From Escherichia coli (GTDB taxonomy: Bacteria; Pseudomonadota; Gammaproteobacteria; Enterobacterales; Enterobacteriaceae): DNA of 64,000 bases. Every line of letters begins with the position of its first letter. The stretch's first letter is position 1. Below are positions 12,001 through 18,000 of this stretch, piece after piece. The DNA lies in assembly GCF_048403405.1 (NCBI RefSeq), contig NZ_CP183129.1; one strand, written 5' to 3'. Position numbers: made by a program.

Positions 12001-15000
12001 ACTGAAAAAGACAGCACCGTTCTCTGCCCTGTTGTCTGTTAACGGCGAGCGTAACTCCCAGAAGTCACTGGCAGAATGGATTGAAGACTGGGCCGACTAC
12101 CTTGTGGGCTTTGATGCTAATGGTGACACCATTCAGGCAACAAAAGCGGCTGCGGCAGTCCGTAAAATCACGATTGAAGCAAACCAGACCGCTGATTTTG
12201 AAGATAATGACTTCAGCGGCAAACGCTCCCTGATGGAATCTGTCGAAGCGAAGACCAAAGACATTATGCCAGTGGCATTTGAATTTAAATGCGTTCCGTT
12301 TGAAGGTCTGAAAGAACGTCCGTTTAAATTACGCCTCAGCATTATCACTGGCGATCGTCCTGTACTGGTTCTGCGCATTATTCAGCTGGAAGCGGTGCAG
12401 GAAGATATGGCTAACGAATTTCGTGATCTGCTTGTTGAGAAATTCAAAGACAGCAAAGTAGAAACCTTTATTGGTACTTTCACCGCCTGATTTCATTACT
12501 GCAAATGCCCCTGCGGGGGCATTTATGGAAACGTAATTAACTCAATAATCACCGGATGGTGAGGGCTTCCTTTTACCCAAACTCAGCGCGGTGCAGCGCA
12601 TATACGTGGAGAACAAAATGTCATTTATTAAAACTTTTTCCGGGAAGCATTTTTATTATGACAAGATAAATAAAGACGACATCGTGATTAACGATATCGC
12701 GGTTTCCCTTTCAAATATCTGCCGCTTTGCCGGTCATCTTTCTCACTTCTACAGTGTCGCCCAACATGCGGTGCTTTGCAGCCAGCTGGTGCCGCAGGAA
12801 TTTGCTTTTGAAGCGTTAATGCATGATGCAACAGAAGCGTATTGCCAGGATATTCCCGCTCCACTGAAACGCCTTCTTCCTGACTATAAACGGATGGAAG
12901 AAAAAATTGACGCCGTAATCCGTGAGAAATACGGGTTACCCCCAGTTATGAGTACGCCCGTGAAATATGCCGATCTTATCATGCTGGCAACCGAACGCCG
13001 CGATCTCGGGCTTGATGATGGCTCTTTCTGGCCTGTACTGGAAGGCATCCCGGCAACAGAGATGTTCAACGTGATTCCACTGGCACCTAGCCATGCCTAC
13101 GGGATGTTTATGGAACGTTTTAACGAGTTATCGGAGTTACGCAAATGCGCATGAATGTTTTCGAAATGGAAGGGTTTCTTCGCGGGAAATGTGTACCGCG
13201 AGATCTGAAAGTGAACGAAACAAATGCTGAGTACCTGGTACGTAAATTCGACGCGCTTGAAGCTAAATGTGCGGCACTGGAAAACAAAATAATACCAGTG
13301 TCAGCTGAACTGCCACCAGCAAATGAAAGTGTTCTGTTATTTGATGCTAACGGAGAAGGCTGGCTGATTGGCTGGCGTTCTCTCTGGTACACCTGGGGAC
13401 AAAAAGAAACCGGAGAATGGCAGTGGACATTTCAGGTCGGGGACCTTGAAAACTTCAATATCACTCACTGGGCAGTAATGCCAAAAGCGCCGGAGGCTGG
13501 AGCATAATGACCACATTTACCAATAAAGAACTGATTAAAGAAATCAAAGAACGAATCAGCAGCCTAGAGGTTCGAGACGATATTGAGCGCCGTGCTTATG
13601 AAATTGCTCTGGCATCGCTAGAAGAGGAGCCGGTGGCATGGCTGCATTCAGAAAATGGCTTAGGTATTCCGGCAATAACGAGGAGTAAAAACATTGCTGA
13701 CAGTTGGTTATCAAAGGGCTGGTATGTTCAGCCGCTATATATAGCCAAGCCAGTGCCGATGGTGCCAGATGCTCGTCCGTCTTTAAATAATGGCATAGTC
13801 GGCTTTGATGAAGGCTGGAACGCCTGCCGCGCCTCCATGCTTAATGGTGCCGAACCTGTAAGCCAGACTTATAAGTTGAACGAGCTGTCGGGCAACTCTC
13901 CGGTAACTCCGGATGGTTGGATAAGCTGTAGTGAGCGAATGCCGAACGATAAACAGTATGTTTGGTGTTGGGGTAAGTCTTACGGCTGGACTGAGTGCGA
14001 TACCTTCGAAGGGTATTACGATTGTTCGAGAAACAAATGGTGGGCAGTTACTGACAATGGGGAAGAACCGGCATCGAAAGTAACCCACTGGATGCCGCTA
14101 CCGGAGCCGCCGCAGGAGGTGAAGTAATGAACAACTTAATGACAACTAAACAAGTCGCCGATTTCTGTGGTGTTTCAGTATCGACAGTTCTTCGCTGGAA
14201 CAGCGTAAACAGGAGAACTGGCCAGAAATACAGGCCTGACTTTCCAGATCCTGATATTAAATCCTGCCCAAATAAATGGGCATCACACAAGATTTACAGA
14301 TTTGCGGGAGTGATTGATTAATATGTATTAGCTTAGATGTGAGCTGACACATCTATGATTAGATGCCAAACCTAATCTGAGCGTCCACTCTTTACCAAGA
14401 GCGGACGTTACCAATGACCATATGACATGAATCGATAAGATCAAAACATTATCGCCAAGAAATGTATTGATACAAATAAAATTGATTACCCCCTTACTCT
14501 TGTTGAAAAGTTAGTCGTAGAGTACCTATCGCAATGTAATCAGCTTTAATCATCTGAAAATTACTCCTTAAAAATTAGCTTTTATATACTGAACAAATTA
14601 AATCTCTGTTTCTTTTCCTGTTCGGCTCAACCAATACTCCATTGTTTGAGTATGAATCTTTTCAGCGTATATTTTTTCAATTAATTTATCTCGTTTTTCT
14701 TTAATGACTTTACGCAGTGAATCATATAACATAAAAAAACGTTCATCATCTTCCTCATTATTACCGTAATTTATTTGATTGAGTTCTGAAAAAATATGAT
14801 AGCACCTTTTTTTCTTGGTCCCCGGCAATATTAAAACCAAGCCGCATTGATCATATTCAAATTCACCTTTATGGGCAGCAAAGTTATGTCTAACATTCAT
14901 AATAGAATCATGTAAATCTCTGTATTTTTCTGGCACATGCTTTCTCTGCAATGTGAATCGACGCCCTTTCGCCTCTGTAAAACACTTACCGTAAGTAACA

Positions 15001-18000
15001 ACTTTTGATATAAATAAAGACTTTAATATTAGATTCTTTTCTAAATCAGGATAAATAAAGTGTTGTTCTCTATTAATGTTATTACAAATGTTTTTTATTA
15101 TATTCTCCCAACCAATAACATTCCGAAGATCTTTATCCAGCAACTGTAAGGCCACATATTGTTCTACAAAGCGGCCTTTTAAAGGTATTCGTGGTAATAT
15201 TACACCTTTCTGCTTATAAACTCTTTCTATCGTATTATCTGGATATTGGATCTTCCTTATTTCTATTCCGTCTTCTTCTGATACCCTTACTAATGGTTCA
15301 TTTTTTAACTTTGACATGTTAACCCTCTTAAATAAAAAACTAACTTTATCCAGATAGTGTCCGTTAAGAAGTTTTCGTTACAACTAAGTTTCTAGGTAAA
15401 TCATGAATCAACCTATAGTATCAAAAACATTTGGTGGTAAACATCTGCATTTATCAAATAGCAGGAGCGATTTAGGGGCATAGGGATAGTGATGATATCT
15501 ATACCCGTGCCCTCTTATGTCAACACAATGGCGTAAACTTAACGCTCACATCTCGCTCAAAGTGTGCTAGGAGATTTGGTTATGTTCAGGTGATACAAAC
15601 CGTCAGTTTGAATCAGAGATAGTACAATTAACAATCGATTCAACCCTCTTCCACCATGCCAGGTAAGCTTTACGCTGTTCTTCTAGATAATCGCTCTTAT
15701 CATAAACTTGCCATACCCCTGGCAGCTTATGACCAAGCATAATTTCTGCGATATGAGGCGCAGTAAGATCAGAAAAATTTGTTCGTGCTGTCCGTCTCAA
15801 GTCATGAAGAGACCAATGAGGGAATTGATATCCTAAACGCCGCCACGCGTACTGCATTAAATTGTAAGGCAGCGACTGTAATGATGTCCTACCGACTGGC
15901 TCCCTGCTTCCTTCCTTAGTAAAAAGCATATCGGAACCGTTGTTCATAGAGATAACGTATTTTATAAGCTCTTCAACCGGTTCAATAATGGGCCGCTTTA
16001 GCGGTTCGCCTGTTATGTCCCCTGTCTTATGTCGTTCAGGTGGTACAGTCCATACCTTATTTATGAAATCAAAATCACCCACCCTAGCAGTAATTAGCTC
16101 CGAACTACGGCAACCAAAATGCAGTAATAGTTTAATGAAGGCCCTGTATTTGGGAACCATTCTAGAGCCATCGATCGCAGCATAAAGAATTTTAATTTCA
16201 TCGTGTGTCAGAAACCGTTTCTTCTGACCTTTACGGATATCCATATCTTTACCCGTGATATCCGACAGCGGGCGAGTTTCAATAAGCTTTCTCTTATACG
16301 CCCAGACATGGGCCTGCTTTGCGTTAATTAGCAATCGGTCTGCTATTGCTGGAGTCTTAGTGCTAAGAGGCTCCAGGACTTCTAACCAATCATGCAATGT
16401 AGCTGCATCGTGAGGGATATTCCCGATTTTAGAGAACAGGTGCAGCTCAAACGAGCGGAGTATCTGTTCAGAACTCTTTTTATTTTTTACACAATATGCT
16501 TCATACCAGGCACGGATCACAGACTCTACCGTCATGGCTTCAGTAGCTTTTCGTTTTTCAGCCTGCTTGACCAATCGTGGATTACGGTTTGACTCGAGTT
16601 CACCACGGAGACGGATAACTTCTTCTCTGGCCTCTTTTAATCCAGTTGCCGGGTAAGTTCCGATATCAAGACGCTCACCTTTCCCTGCCCATTGATAACG
16701 ATATTGGAACACTACGCGACCTTTCGGTGATACTCTGACAGACAGACCATCACGATCGGATTTAACCAAAACCTTATCACGTTCCTTTCCAACGACTGAA
16801 CGCAACCACGCATCAGACAGCGCCATTACTCACCTTGTACAAATCGCAAAACACCTCTGCTGCTTTGTACATTATGTACAAGCATATGTACAGATTTTTG
16901 ATGAAAGCAACCTGATCGATTTAAAGTTACATGAAAGAATTTTCAATTAAAGAAGCCACATAACCATATGTATTTAAATGAGTTATATAACCAGACCTCA
17001 ATTAACTGAAAGGATTTTGAAAGAGTAAAAGAGCTTTAATTTGGGATTAATTATTGGGGTGAGAAATAATGGCAAAAGTGCGGCGCTTCGCCACCTCTTG
17101 CAAATAAGGAGACAACGTCATAATTCTTTCTTCTTGAGTAAGCGGCATCGCGCCGCGCTTGTTGAAAACGAAAAATTGCGGCTATTTTACCCATCAACGG
17201 GGGGAGGCAATCAGTGTTTACACAGGAGCTGCTCCAGTTCGTGCAACGAAGAAACGGTCCAGGTGGGCGCGATGCCTTCTGGTTGCTCGCGATTGTGCGC
17301 ATTCAGCCAGCAGGTCGCAAGCCCGGCGTTGATGCCACCGAGAATATCGGACTCGGCAGTGTCGCCAACCATCAGCACGCGTGAACGGTCAGGATTGCCC
17401 GCCTGTTCCAGCGCATAATCGAAAATTTTCTTATTCGGTTTGGCAACGCCAACTTCTTCGGAAATCACCAGCAAATCGAAATAATCACGCAGGCCCGTGC
17501 GTTCCAGACGCACTTGCTGCAAGGCGCTAAAGCCGTTGGTGATGATGCCAATTTTAGCGTTGCCACGAATGGCGTTAAGCAGAGAAACCGCGCCCGGCAG
17601 CGGCGTACAGATTTCCGCCATCGCATTAATAAAGGCTTCGTTGAGTTTACCCGGCTCGACGTTCAGCCGTTCGGCCCAGCTCTCAAACCGCCCGTGCTGA
17701 AGCTGTAATGAAGTGATCGCGCCGTTTTGATAATCCACCCACAGTGGCTTGTTAACGGCCTGATAGTCCTGAAAATCTTCAGCGGTAAAGGTGACGCTGT
17801 AATCAAGAAACATCCGCTGCAGGCCGGTGAATGAGTCAAAGGTAAACAGCGTTTCATCGGCATCAAAGAAAATCCAGTCCCACTTCATTATTCCACCTTG
17901 TCTTACATACTGATTGGCAACGCCATGATGATGGCGTCTTCGCGACCGTCCGTGGTGGGGTAGTAATTGCGGCGAATTGTCGCCTCGTTAAAGCCTAAAC

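What the first reader, a model, noticed from the sequence alone, without database searches (positions are those of the whole stretch)
14598..15317. AT-rich cargo gene between xis and int with a HEPN-like Rx5H motif: candidate abortive-infection/defence toxin
A single 239-aa ORF on the opposite strand to the early-left operon sits in the xis-int interval, a classical site for prophage accessory genes. It is conspicuously AT-rich compared with flanking phage DNA, has its own RBS, and contains RHNFAAH, matching the Rx4-6H signature of HEPN RNases found in Abi proteins. I could not assign it to a named family.
Basis: partly seen in the sequence, partly recalled or inferred. Interest (0 to 1): 0.65.

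Follow-up and report, generated by a model that had tools for sequence, protein, structure and literature searches.

The report
Solo HEPN-like prophage defence candidate gene
A 239-residue gene between the excisionase and integrase genes of an E. coli prophage most likely encodes an unclassified HEPN-type RNase. It sits at a swap site where related prophages carry known anti-phage genes, so it is a sound but untested candidate abortive-infection gene of a familiar kind.

Summary
There is an intact 239-aa ORF at 14598..15317 (-), with 31.5% GC against 45-50% in the flanks, an AAGAGGG ribosome-binding site, and RHNFAAH at residues 143-149. The motif means nothing in a single sequence: 79% of shuffles contain an Rx4-6H. 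It is, however, conserved across at least 107 homologues down to about 20% identity (R143 invariant, H149 in at least 90%).

An AlphaFold2 model (pLDDT 86.6) puts the motif at the end of the third core helix of a four-helix bundle, which is where the HEPN superfamily places it. The annotated Foldseek neighbours in AFDB are all HEPN or Abi proteins (Cthe_2314-like, ApeA-like, AbiU2-like, AbiV). Pfam, NCBIfam, PADLOC and PDB sequence searches give no significant hit, so the family is unclassified.

The gene always occurs alone, in cargo positions of temperate phages. These include lambdoid prophages, P2/186-like prophages (directly after int in the repressor-int gene string) and a filamentous Vibrio phage.

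In E. coli the same integrase occurs in 697 of 5426 genomes, and only about 70 carry this gene. Sampled relatives carry AbiU, dGTPase, Dsr1 or unknown genes at the same place.

Best reading: a stand-alone HEPN RNase acting in abortive infection. The fold assignment is strong. The defence role is inferred from position only.

The parts
14598..15317 (-). 239-aa ORF including the stop codon: a stand-alone HEPN-like protein (RefSeq WP_000040220.1, 'hypothetical protein'; PHROG 8440)
   Evidence: purifying selection; 497 clusters (50% identity) with E<=1e-3
15177..15293 (-). N-terminal beta-strand region (residues 9-47), a possible sensor or oligomerisation element
   Evidence: AF2 secondary structure, strands 9-15, 18-24, 30-36 and 43-47; the function is inferred only
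14655..15173 (-). Helical HEPN-like core (residues 49-221): helices 49-79, 92-111, 130-148 and 188-221, a conserved loop at 112-129, and a beta-hairpin at 157-180 inserted after the motif
14871..14891 (-). RHNFAAH, the R-x5-H motif (R143...H149), predicted RNase catalytic residues
   Evidence: location at the end of helix 130-148; HEPN definition
15323..15329 (-). Shine-Dalgarno sequence AAGAGGG, five bases upstream of the ATG
   Evidence: TTTAAGAGG invariant in three genera
15318..15474 (-). Upstream leader that travels with the gene (about 81% identical in the Cronobacter copy, which sits in a different prophage position). It probably holds the gene's own promoter, with a conserved -10-like GGAYAYTAT about 45 nt upstream of the ATG; the promoter is not demonstrated
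   Evidence: the consensus scan found no promoter on this strand
14410..15600 (.). Variable cargo segment of the prophage: homology with sister prophages that carry other cargo breaks at about 14357-14410 and about 15593-15621
   Evidence: alternative cargo
15603..16826 (-). Tyrosine integrase (407 aa), right border of the swap site. It is upstream of the ORF on the same strand and the prophage is integrated next to yjjG
14127..14321 (+). 64-aa excisionase ORF, the last gene of the early-left operon and the left border of the swap site
   Evidence: annotated 'excisionase' in phage 2H10

Best explanation
The ORF encodes a stand-alone protein of the HEPN superfamily. It has an N-terminal beta element followed by a four-helix bundle whose conserved R143-x5-H149 forms a metal-independent RNase site, probably assisted by the conserved D63, Y109, K111, R119 and H136.

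The gene is a mobile single-gene cassette, consisting of the gene plus about 160 bp of leader, that temperate phages carry in their accessory slots. In a lysogen it is most likely expressed and kept inactive as a homo-oligomer. When a foreign phage infects, a phage product switches it on, it cleaves RNA (tRNA, rRNA or mRNA), and the infection aborts.

Shown here: the gene is real and under purifying selection; the motif is conserved; the predicted fold and motif position are HEPN-like; the gene occurs alone; and it sits in a slot that holds known defence genes in sister prophages. Inferred: RNase activity, the oligomeric active site, expression in the lysogen, the trigger, and the defence phenotype.
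For: Fold and motif:
- AF2 model with pLDDT 86.6 and pTM 0.75. R143-H149 lies at the end of helix 130-148. PMC3710099 states that Rx4-6H sits at the end of helix 3, is followed by a polar N/D/H, and that there is an insert between helices 2 and 3.
- R143 is invariant and H149 is present in at least 90% of 107 homologues of 20-85% identity. Position 144 is H or N. The same holds in 30 further divergent members.
- Every annotated hit among the top 50 Foldseek AFDB50 matches is HEPN or Abi: Cthe-2314-like (E 4e-18, TM 0.83, 32% identity), ApeA-like, AbiU2-like (5 hits) and AbiV.
- Pfam gives weak HEPN_AbiU2 hits in 4 of 137 members.
- A tandem-linked dimer model has pTM 0.79 although the linker is disordered, which is consistent with a homodimer.

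Defence context:
- The same int is present in 697 genomes and this cargo in 69-70. In a sample of ten other loci with this integrase, nine carried different cargo and one carried a variant of this same ORF. The alternatives were AbiU (PADLOC 2.6e-111) twice, dGTPase (8.2e-105), Dsr1 twice, a DUF4365 protein and two unknown genes.
- In P2/186-like prophages of Yersinia, Enterobacter and Citrobacter the homologue lies directly after int, on the same strand as the repressor, at the prophage edge; in two of them it overlaps the end of int. A 2026 preprint records the int-att interval as a P2 defence hotspot.
- Other copies lie after tail fibre/umuDC genes, after the lysis genes, between terminase and portal on the opposite strand, and in a filamentous Vibrio phage.
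- There is no conserved neighbour in any of these contexts.
- HepS shows that a solo prophage HEPN protein can both sense and execute abortive infection.
Against: - No experiment of any kind bears on the function.
- No HMM of a named HEPN family or defence system reaches significance.
- The conserved acidic residue D63 is in the first core helix, not in helix 2 where PMC3710099 places it.
- No promoter or terminator was found by consensus scan, so expression in the lysogen is not shown.
- The hotspot argument is guilt by association: two of the alternative cargo genes are themselves of unknown function.
- AbiU2, the nearest named Abi relative, is itself not clearly a defence effector (my recollection of Dai et al. 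2001, not checked here).
Confidence: 0.55

Rival explanations
1. It is a HEPN RNase, but it serves the phage in another way. It could be a post-segregational or addiction toxin that stabilises the prophage, an RNase used during the phage's own lytic growth for host shut-off, or a counter-defence factor.
For: The fold and motif evidence is the same as for the best explanation. The family occurs inside phage genomes, including between terminase and portal and after the lysis genes. Expression timing is unknown.
Against: The gene sits in the slot where sister prophages carry bona fide defence genes. In P2/186-like prophages it follows int on the repressor strand, which to my knowledge is the lysogenic transcript in phage 186. 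It is often on the strand opposite to the lytic operons. An addiction toxin would need an antidote, and no partner gene or repeat RNA is present.
Confidence: 0.2
2. It is a catalytically inactive HEPN-like helical protein that acts by binding, for example as a regulator, a superinfection-exclusion factor or a nucleotide or ligand binder. The conserved residues would then be structural or ligand-binding.
Against: Non-catalytic HEPN domains typically lose Rx4-6H. Here R143 is invariant and H149 nearly so, together with H136, R119, Y109 and D63, across homologues of about 20% identity. That is the pattern expected of an active site.
Confidence: 0.12
3. It is the toxin of a toxin-antitoxin pair whose antitoxin is a small protein or RNA in the flanking 280-bp spacers.
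For: Many HEPN toxins are paired (HepT-MntA, RnlA-RnlB). A 19-aa ORF with an AAGGAG site lies just downstream at 14553..14494.
Against: The DNA shared with the Cronobacter and Leclercia cassettes ends 8-24 bp after the stop codon, so the small ORF is not conserved. There are no tandem repeats, no Rfam match and no MNT-like neighbour. In P2-like prophages the gene abuts int on one side and host DNA on the other.
Confidence: 0.08
4. It is not a functional gene, only a chance ORF or a decaying remnant in AT-rich DNA.
For: It is annotated only as 'hypothetical protein'.
Against: No shuffle produced an ORF above 156 codons. dN/dS is 0.05-0.2. There are 497 homologous clusters, and the fold prediction is confident.
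Confidence: 0.01

Closest known systems
Abi-associated HEPN families of Anantharaman et al. 2013: AbiU2 (Pfam PF18734), Cthe_2314 (PF18730), ApeA (PF18739), AbiV
   Same: All-alpha four-helix core. Conserved R-x(4-6)-H at the end of helix 3 with H/N after the Arg. Size around 230-250 aa. They are the nearest annotated neighbours by Foldseek and give the only recurrent, though weak, Pfam signal, which is to AbiU2.
   Different: No member of the family reaches significance against any of these HMMs (best E 5.6e-3). This family has an N-terminal beta element and a beta-hairpin directly after the motif, and the spacing is fixed at five residues. Table 1 of the 2013 paper lists no context for Cthe_2314 and lists Sel1/R-M operons for AbiU2, whereas this family is a solo phage cargo gene.
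HepS of Salmonella prophage Gifsy-1 (PMC13043305)
   Same: A single HEPN-domain protein encoded in a lambdoid prophage accessory slot, with no partner gene. HepS is shown to be an abortive-infection tRNA anticodon nuclease held inactive as an oligomer until a phage tail-tip protein activates it. It is the best working model for how this gene could act.
   Different: [quoted passage not shown] No sequence or structural match to it appeared in the PDB searches.
Tha, the tail-activated HEPN system of Staphylococcus aureus prophages (PMC11087260)
   Same: A prophage-encoded HEPN defence activated by structural proteins of incoming phages (abstract seen).
   Different: It comes from a different phylum, and no sequence comparison was made here. 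The analogy is conceptual only.
HepT (HEPN) toxins of HepT-MntA toxin-antitoxin pairs (PDB 7ae2, 5yep)
   Different: HepT is about 140 aa, is paired with an MNT antitoxin that AMPylates it, and shares only 8% identity. No MNT gene is present here.

Membership tests
HEPN superfamily | Four-helix up-and-down bundle core | tested here: met
HEPN superfamily | Rx4-6H motif conserved across the family | tested here: met
   R143 is invariant and H149 is present in at least 90% of 107 sequences. Both are invariant in 30 further members.
HEPN superfamily | [quoted passage not shown] | tested here: met
   Residues 143-149 close helix 130-148, and the loop or hairpin follows. The definition is quoted from PMC3710099.
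HEPN superfamily | Polar N/D/H residue immediately after the conserved Arg | tested here: met
   Position 144 is H or N in nearly all members.
HEPN superfamily | [quoted passage not shown] | tested here: met
   A non-helical segment at 112-129 carries the conserved K111, F113 and R119.
HEPN superfamily | Second conserved acidic residue in helix 2 (Ex3[KR]); present in many but not all families | tested here: inconclusive
   The only invariant acidic residue is D63, in LDKDLRN on the first core helix. D61-x3-R65 resembles the motif but lies on a different helix.
HEPN superfamily | Dimer or oligomer that juxtaposes two Rx4-6H motifs | tested here: inconclusive
   A tandem copy joined by a 30-residue Gly-Ser linker gave pTM 0.79 with linker pLDDT of 25-33. 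This implies a confident relative placement of the two copies, but the interface could not be inspected.
HEPN superfamily | Metal-independent RNase activity that depends on the R and H | not testable with these tools
   This needs biochemistry.
Pfam HEPN_AbiU2 (PF18734), HEPN_Cthe2314 and other named HEPN families | Significant match to the family HMM | tested here: not met
   The query has no HEPN hit at E<=10. Among 137 members scanned, 0 have E<=0.001 and 4 have weak AbiU2 hits, the best at 5.6e-3.
Known or candidate defence systems in PADLOC-DB 2.0 | Match to a system HMM | tested here: not met
   The query has 0 hits at E<=1. Ten divergent members gave only chance-level hits (LmuA 1.7e-3, PDC-M66B 4e-3).
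HepT-MntA or RnlA-RnlB type II TA toxins; ToxIN-like type III TA | Adjacent antitoxin gene, or tandem-repeat antitoxin RNA | tested here: not met
   There is no conserved neighbour in eight contexts. There are no tandem repeats, no Rfam hit and no conserved small ORF.
HepS family | Sequence or structural homology to Gifsy-1 HepS (Rx4H at residues 100-105) | tested here: inconclusive
Prophage defence-hotspot cargo | Same flanked locus in related elements carries interchangeable known defence systems | tested here: met
   Breakpoints are at about 14357-14410 and 15593-15621. Cargo found includes AbiU, dGTPase, Dsr1 and others. Frequencies are 697 genomes with int against about 70 with this ORF.

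The most novel reading that the evidence does not exclude
This is the founding E. coli example of a widespread, unnamed family of solo HEPN abortive-infection nucleases. The family has at least 497 clusters at 50% identity and is found mostly in Proteobacteria. It moves as a single-gene cassette between lambdoid, P2-like and even filamentous phages. Its family-specific N-terminal beta element and post-motif hairpin would sense a phage protein and unlock the RNase site, which would make it a new one-protein sensor-effector comparable to HepS but evolved independently.
Probability: 0.45. Interest if true: 0.55.

Novelty: new member of a known kind. Interest (0 to 1): 0.42.

Why it matters
If confirmed, this would add a compact one-gene anti-phage system that current annotation tools (PADLOC, Pfam, NCBIfam) do not recognise. 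It is present in about 1.3% of complete E. coli genomes and has relatives in Cronobacter, Leclercia, Yersinia, Enterobacter, Citrobacter, Acinetobacter and Vibrio phages.

It also marks the xis-int interval of the yjjG-integrated prophage family, present in 13% of complete E. coli genomes, as a compact defence hotspot. Two further unknown cargo genes sit there: the 331-aa WP_000653746.1 and the 413-aa WP_052993680.1.

The concept is not new. HEPN RNases in prophage accessory slots are well established, so the value lies in cataloguing and as a tractable test case for how solo HEPN proteins are triggered.

Tried and rejected
- Pfam, NCBIfam, PADLOC and PDB sequence searches with the single protein and with profiles found nothing significant.
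- A profile search of the word-indexed 5.8-billion-protein set did not reach beyond the family and returned no Pfam-annotated relatives.
- Foldseek against the PDB gave nothing significant.
- I tried to retrieve HepS from the LT2 Gifsy-1 record for a direct comparison. No ORF there has R100/H105, because HepS is in the strain 14028 version.
- The consensus promoter and terminator scan found nothing on the gene's strand next to the ORF. A perfect TTGACA at 15523-15518 lacks a -10 element at proper spacing.
- The small 19-aa downstream ORF was rejected as an antitoxin because it lies outside the conserved cassette.
- Type III TA was rejected: no tandem repeats and no Rfam families.
- The hairpin at 14381-14410 was rejected as part of the cargo because it is shared with relatives that carry AbiU.
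- A literature search for the RefSeq accession of a 99%-identical variant (WP_000040219) found nothing; a search on phage 2H10 returned one paper that was not read.
- Names of cluster members are all 'hypothetical protein'.
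Full report
**1. What is in the sequence**

The window holds an ATG-initiated 239-codon ORF at 14598..15317 on the - strand. It lies between a 64-aa excisionase ORF (14127..14321, +), which is the last gene of a + strand early-left operon, and a 407-aa tyrosine integrase (15603..16826, -). Host genes yjjG, rimI and holD follow from 17211.

The ORF is 31.5% GC (GC3 26%). The prophage to its left is 47.5% GC and int is 44.5%. In 2000 shuffles of the 1.28-kb interval the longest ORF averaged 75 codons and never exceeded 156. An AAGAGGG Shine-Dalgarno sequence sits five bases before the ATG and is conserved in other genera. 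dN/dS is 0.12 against the Cronobacter copy and 0.05 against the Leclercia copy.

**2. The motif**

RHNFAAH (residues 143-149) matches Rx4-6H, but this is uninformative in a single sequence. 79% of shuffles of this protein contain such a match, and the protein holds a second, unconserved match.

The informative fact is conservation. An exhaustive phmmer search of 1.84 billion cluster representatives found 497 clusters with E<=1e-3, almost all 220-260 aa. In an alignment of 107 of them, at 20-85% identity, the invariant positions are D63, Y109, R119, H136 and R143. W70, K111, F113, A148, H149 and G151 are at least 90% conserved. Thirty further divergent members keep Y109, H136, R143, H149 and G151 invariant. 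The motif reads R-[HN]-x-x-[ATV]-A-H throughout.

**3. Fold**

AlphaFold2 with a 22-sequence alignment gave mean pLDDT 86.6 and pTM 0.75. The model has:
- an N-terminal beta element (strands between residues 9 and 47);
- core helices at 49-79, 92-111 and 130-148;
- a beta-hairpin at 157-180;
- a long helix at 188-221.

The motif closes the third core helix. The reference description of the HEPN superfamily (PMC3710099) lists four features. The fold is a four-helix bundle. [quoted passage not shown] The residue after the Arg is polar (N, D or H). There are frequent inserts between helices 2 and 3. All four are met here. The optional acidic residue of helix 2 is not matched, because the invariant D63 is on the first helix.

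Searches of structure libraries gave the following:
- Foldseek against AFDB50 gave 234 hits at E<=1e-3.
- Among the top 50, every hit with an annotation is HEPN or Abi:
  - a Cthe-2314-like HEPN protein (E 4e-18, TM 0.83, 32% identity);
  - a 'HEPN domain-containing protein';
  - two ApeA-like HEPN proteins;
  - five AbiU2-like HEPN proteins;
  - one AbiV family protein.
- Foldseek against the PDB was not significant.

A tandem copy joined by a flexible linker was modelled with pTM 0.79, while the linker itself had pLDDT of 25-33. This suggests a defined homodimer, as HEPN RNases need, but I could not inspect the interface.

**4. Family membership**

No named family claims this protein:
- Pfam gave nothing for the query. 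It gave only four weak HEPN_AbiU2 hits (best E 5.6e-3) among 137 members.
- NCBIfam and PADLOC were empty.
- PHROG 8440 has unknown function.
- PDB sequence searches were empty.
- Public names are all 'hypothetical protein'.

I therefore place the protein in the HEPN superfamily as an unclassified family near the Abi-associated groups. I do not place it in any named family.

**5. Context**

The gene is always solo and always in phage cargo positions:
- The same protein is gp29 of Escherichia phage 2H10, between int and xis.
- An 85%-identical copy in Cronobacter sits at the opposite end of a lambdoid prophage, after tail-fibre and umuDC genes. DNA similarity to the window covers only 15474..14590, that is the gene plus about 157 bp of leader, so this is the mobile unit.
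- In P2/186-like prophages of Yersinia, Enterobacter, Citrobacter and one unassigned contig (assembled from public sequencing reads), 39-43%-identical homologues lie directly after int, on the same strand as the repressor, at the prophage edge. In the first two they overlap the end of int by about 17-20 nt. A 2026 preprint lists the int-att interval as a minor P2 defence hotspot.
- More distant members lie after the lysis genes of a lambdoid element, between terminase and portal on the opposite strand, at a prophage end in Pantoea, and in a filamentous Vibrio phage.

There is no conserved neighbour, no tandem repeat, no Rfam match and no conserved small ORF next to the gene.

**6. The slot is a defence hotspot**

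The integrase is present in 697 of 5426 complete E. coli genomes, and this ORF in 69-70. Homology between the window and sister prophages breaks at about 14357-14410 and about 15593-15621.

In ten sampled sister loci the slot held:
- a variant of this ORF (once);
- AbiU/AIPR (twice; PADLOC 2.6e-111);
- a dGTPase (8.2e-105);
- Dsr1 (twice);
- a DUF4365 protein;
- a 331-aa unknown (twice);
- a 413-aa unknown.

Five of the nine alternative cargoes are recognised single-gene anti-phage systems.

**7. Mechanism proposed**

I propose a stand-alone HEPN RNase that is carried as a lysogenic-conversion cassette. It would be held inactive as an oligomer and switched on by a component of an infecting phage, leading to RNA cleavage and abortive infection. 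The closest worked example is HepS of Gifsy-1, a solo prophage HEPN protein. HepS is an inactive tetramer until a tail-tip protein activates it, and it then cuts tRNA anticodon loops.

The steps shown here are the gene's reality, the family-wide conservation of the putative catalytic residues, the predicted fold, solo occurrence and hotspot residence. The steps inferred are catalysis, oligomeric activation, expression in the lysogen, the trigger and the phenotype. No promoter was identified by consensus scan. A conserved -10-like element lies about 45 nt upstream of the ATG.

**8. Rivals**

- A HEPN RNase with another phage-serving role (addiction, host shut-off or anti-defence): probability 0.2.
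- A non-catalytic HEPN-like binder: 0.12.
- A TA toxin with a hidden antitoxin: 0.08.
- A non-gene: 0.01.

The evidence for and against each is given in the structured fields.

**9. Verdict**

Its interpretation is supported as far as computation can go. The finding is a new, unnamed member of a well-known kind: HEPN effectors in prophage defence slots. It is not a new kind of system. It is a good candidate for a simple plaque-assay test. The swap site itself offers two more unknown candidates.

Noticed in passing
window 14357-15621 (xis-int interval); loci L025-L028 and L031-L036: The interval is a single-gene swap site in a prophage family integrated next to yjjG, and the integrase is in 697 of 5426 complete E. 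coli genomes. Sister prophages carry AbiU/AIPR, dGTPase, Dsr1 or a DUF4365 protein here. Two proteins with no PADLOC hit also occur here and are further untested defence candidates: the 331-aa WP_000653746.1 (seen twice) and the 413-aa WP_052993680.1.
   Followed up: partly
window 14494-14553 (- strand): A 19-codon ORF (MIKADYIAIGTLRLTFQQE), preceded by AAGGAG, lies just downstream of the HEPN-like gene. It is outside the DNA shared with the Cronobacter and Leclercia cassettes, so it is probably a chance ORF.
   Followed up: yes
window 14381-14410: An inverted repeat (CGTCCACTCTT / AAGAGCGGACG) lies between the convergent excisionase gene and the cargo gene and has no T-run. It belongs to the conserved backbone, because it is shared with AbiU-carrying relatives up to 14409. 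It may terminate the early-left operon.
   Followed up: partly
window 13507-14321: RefSeq records of identical DNA do not annotate the 64-aa excisionase ORF (14127..14321), and they call the DUF551 gene a two-piece pseudogene. In the window it is an intact 206-aa ORF (13507..14127), and the phage 2H10 record annotates both genes.
   Followed up: no
window 15518-15523 (- strand): A perfect -35 hexamer TTGACA lies about 80 nt after the int stop codon and upstream of the cargo gene. It has no acceptable -10 element at 16-18 nt spacing (TATCAT lies at 20 nt).
   Followed up: no
window about 17053-17121 (- strand): RefSeq annotates a 69-nt gene fragment ('incomplete, missing C-terminus') between int and yjjG in every sister genome. 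It is probably a remnant at the attachment site, and its origin was not determined.
   Followed up: no
L001 5902-6639 (Vibrio phage 10N.286.54.E4_PE002): A 28%-identical homologue is carried by a 10.9-kb filamentous (Tubulavirales) Vibrio phage, after the zot-like gene I, and is noted there as 'endonuclease'. Defence-type cargo in a filamentous phage is unusual.
   Followed up: no
L004 5071-7708; L006, L009, L014: In P2/186-like prophages the homologue follows int on the repressor strand. In the Yersinia and Enterobacter loci it overlaps the last 17-20 nt of int, which suggests translational coupling within the lysogenic operon.
   Followed up: partly
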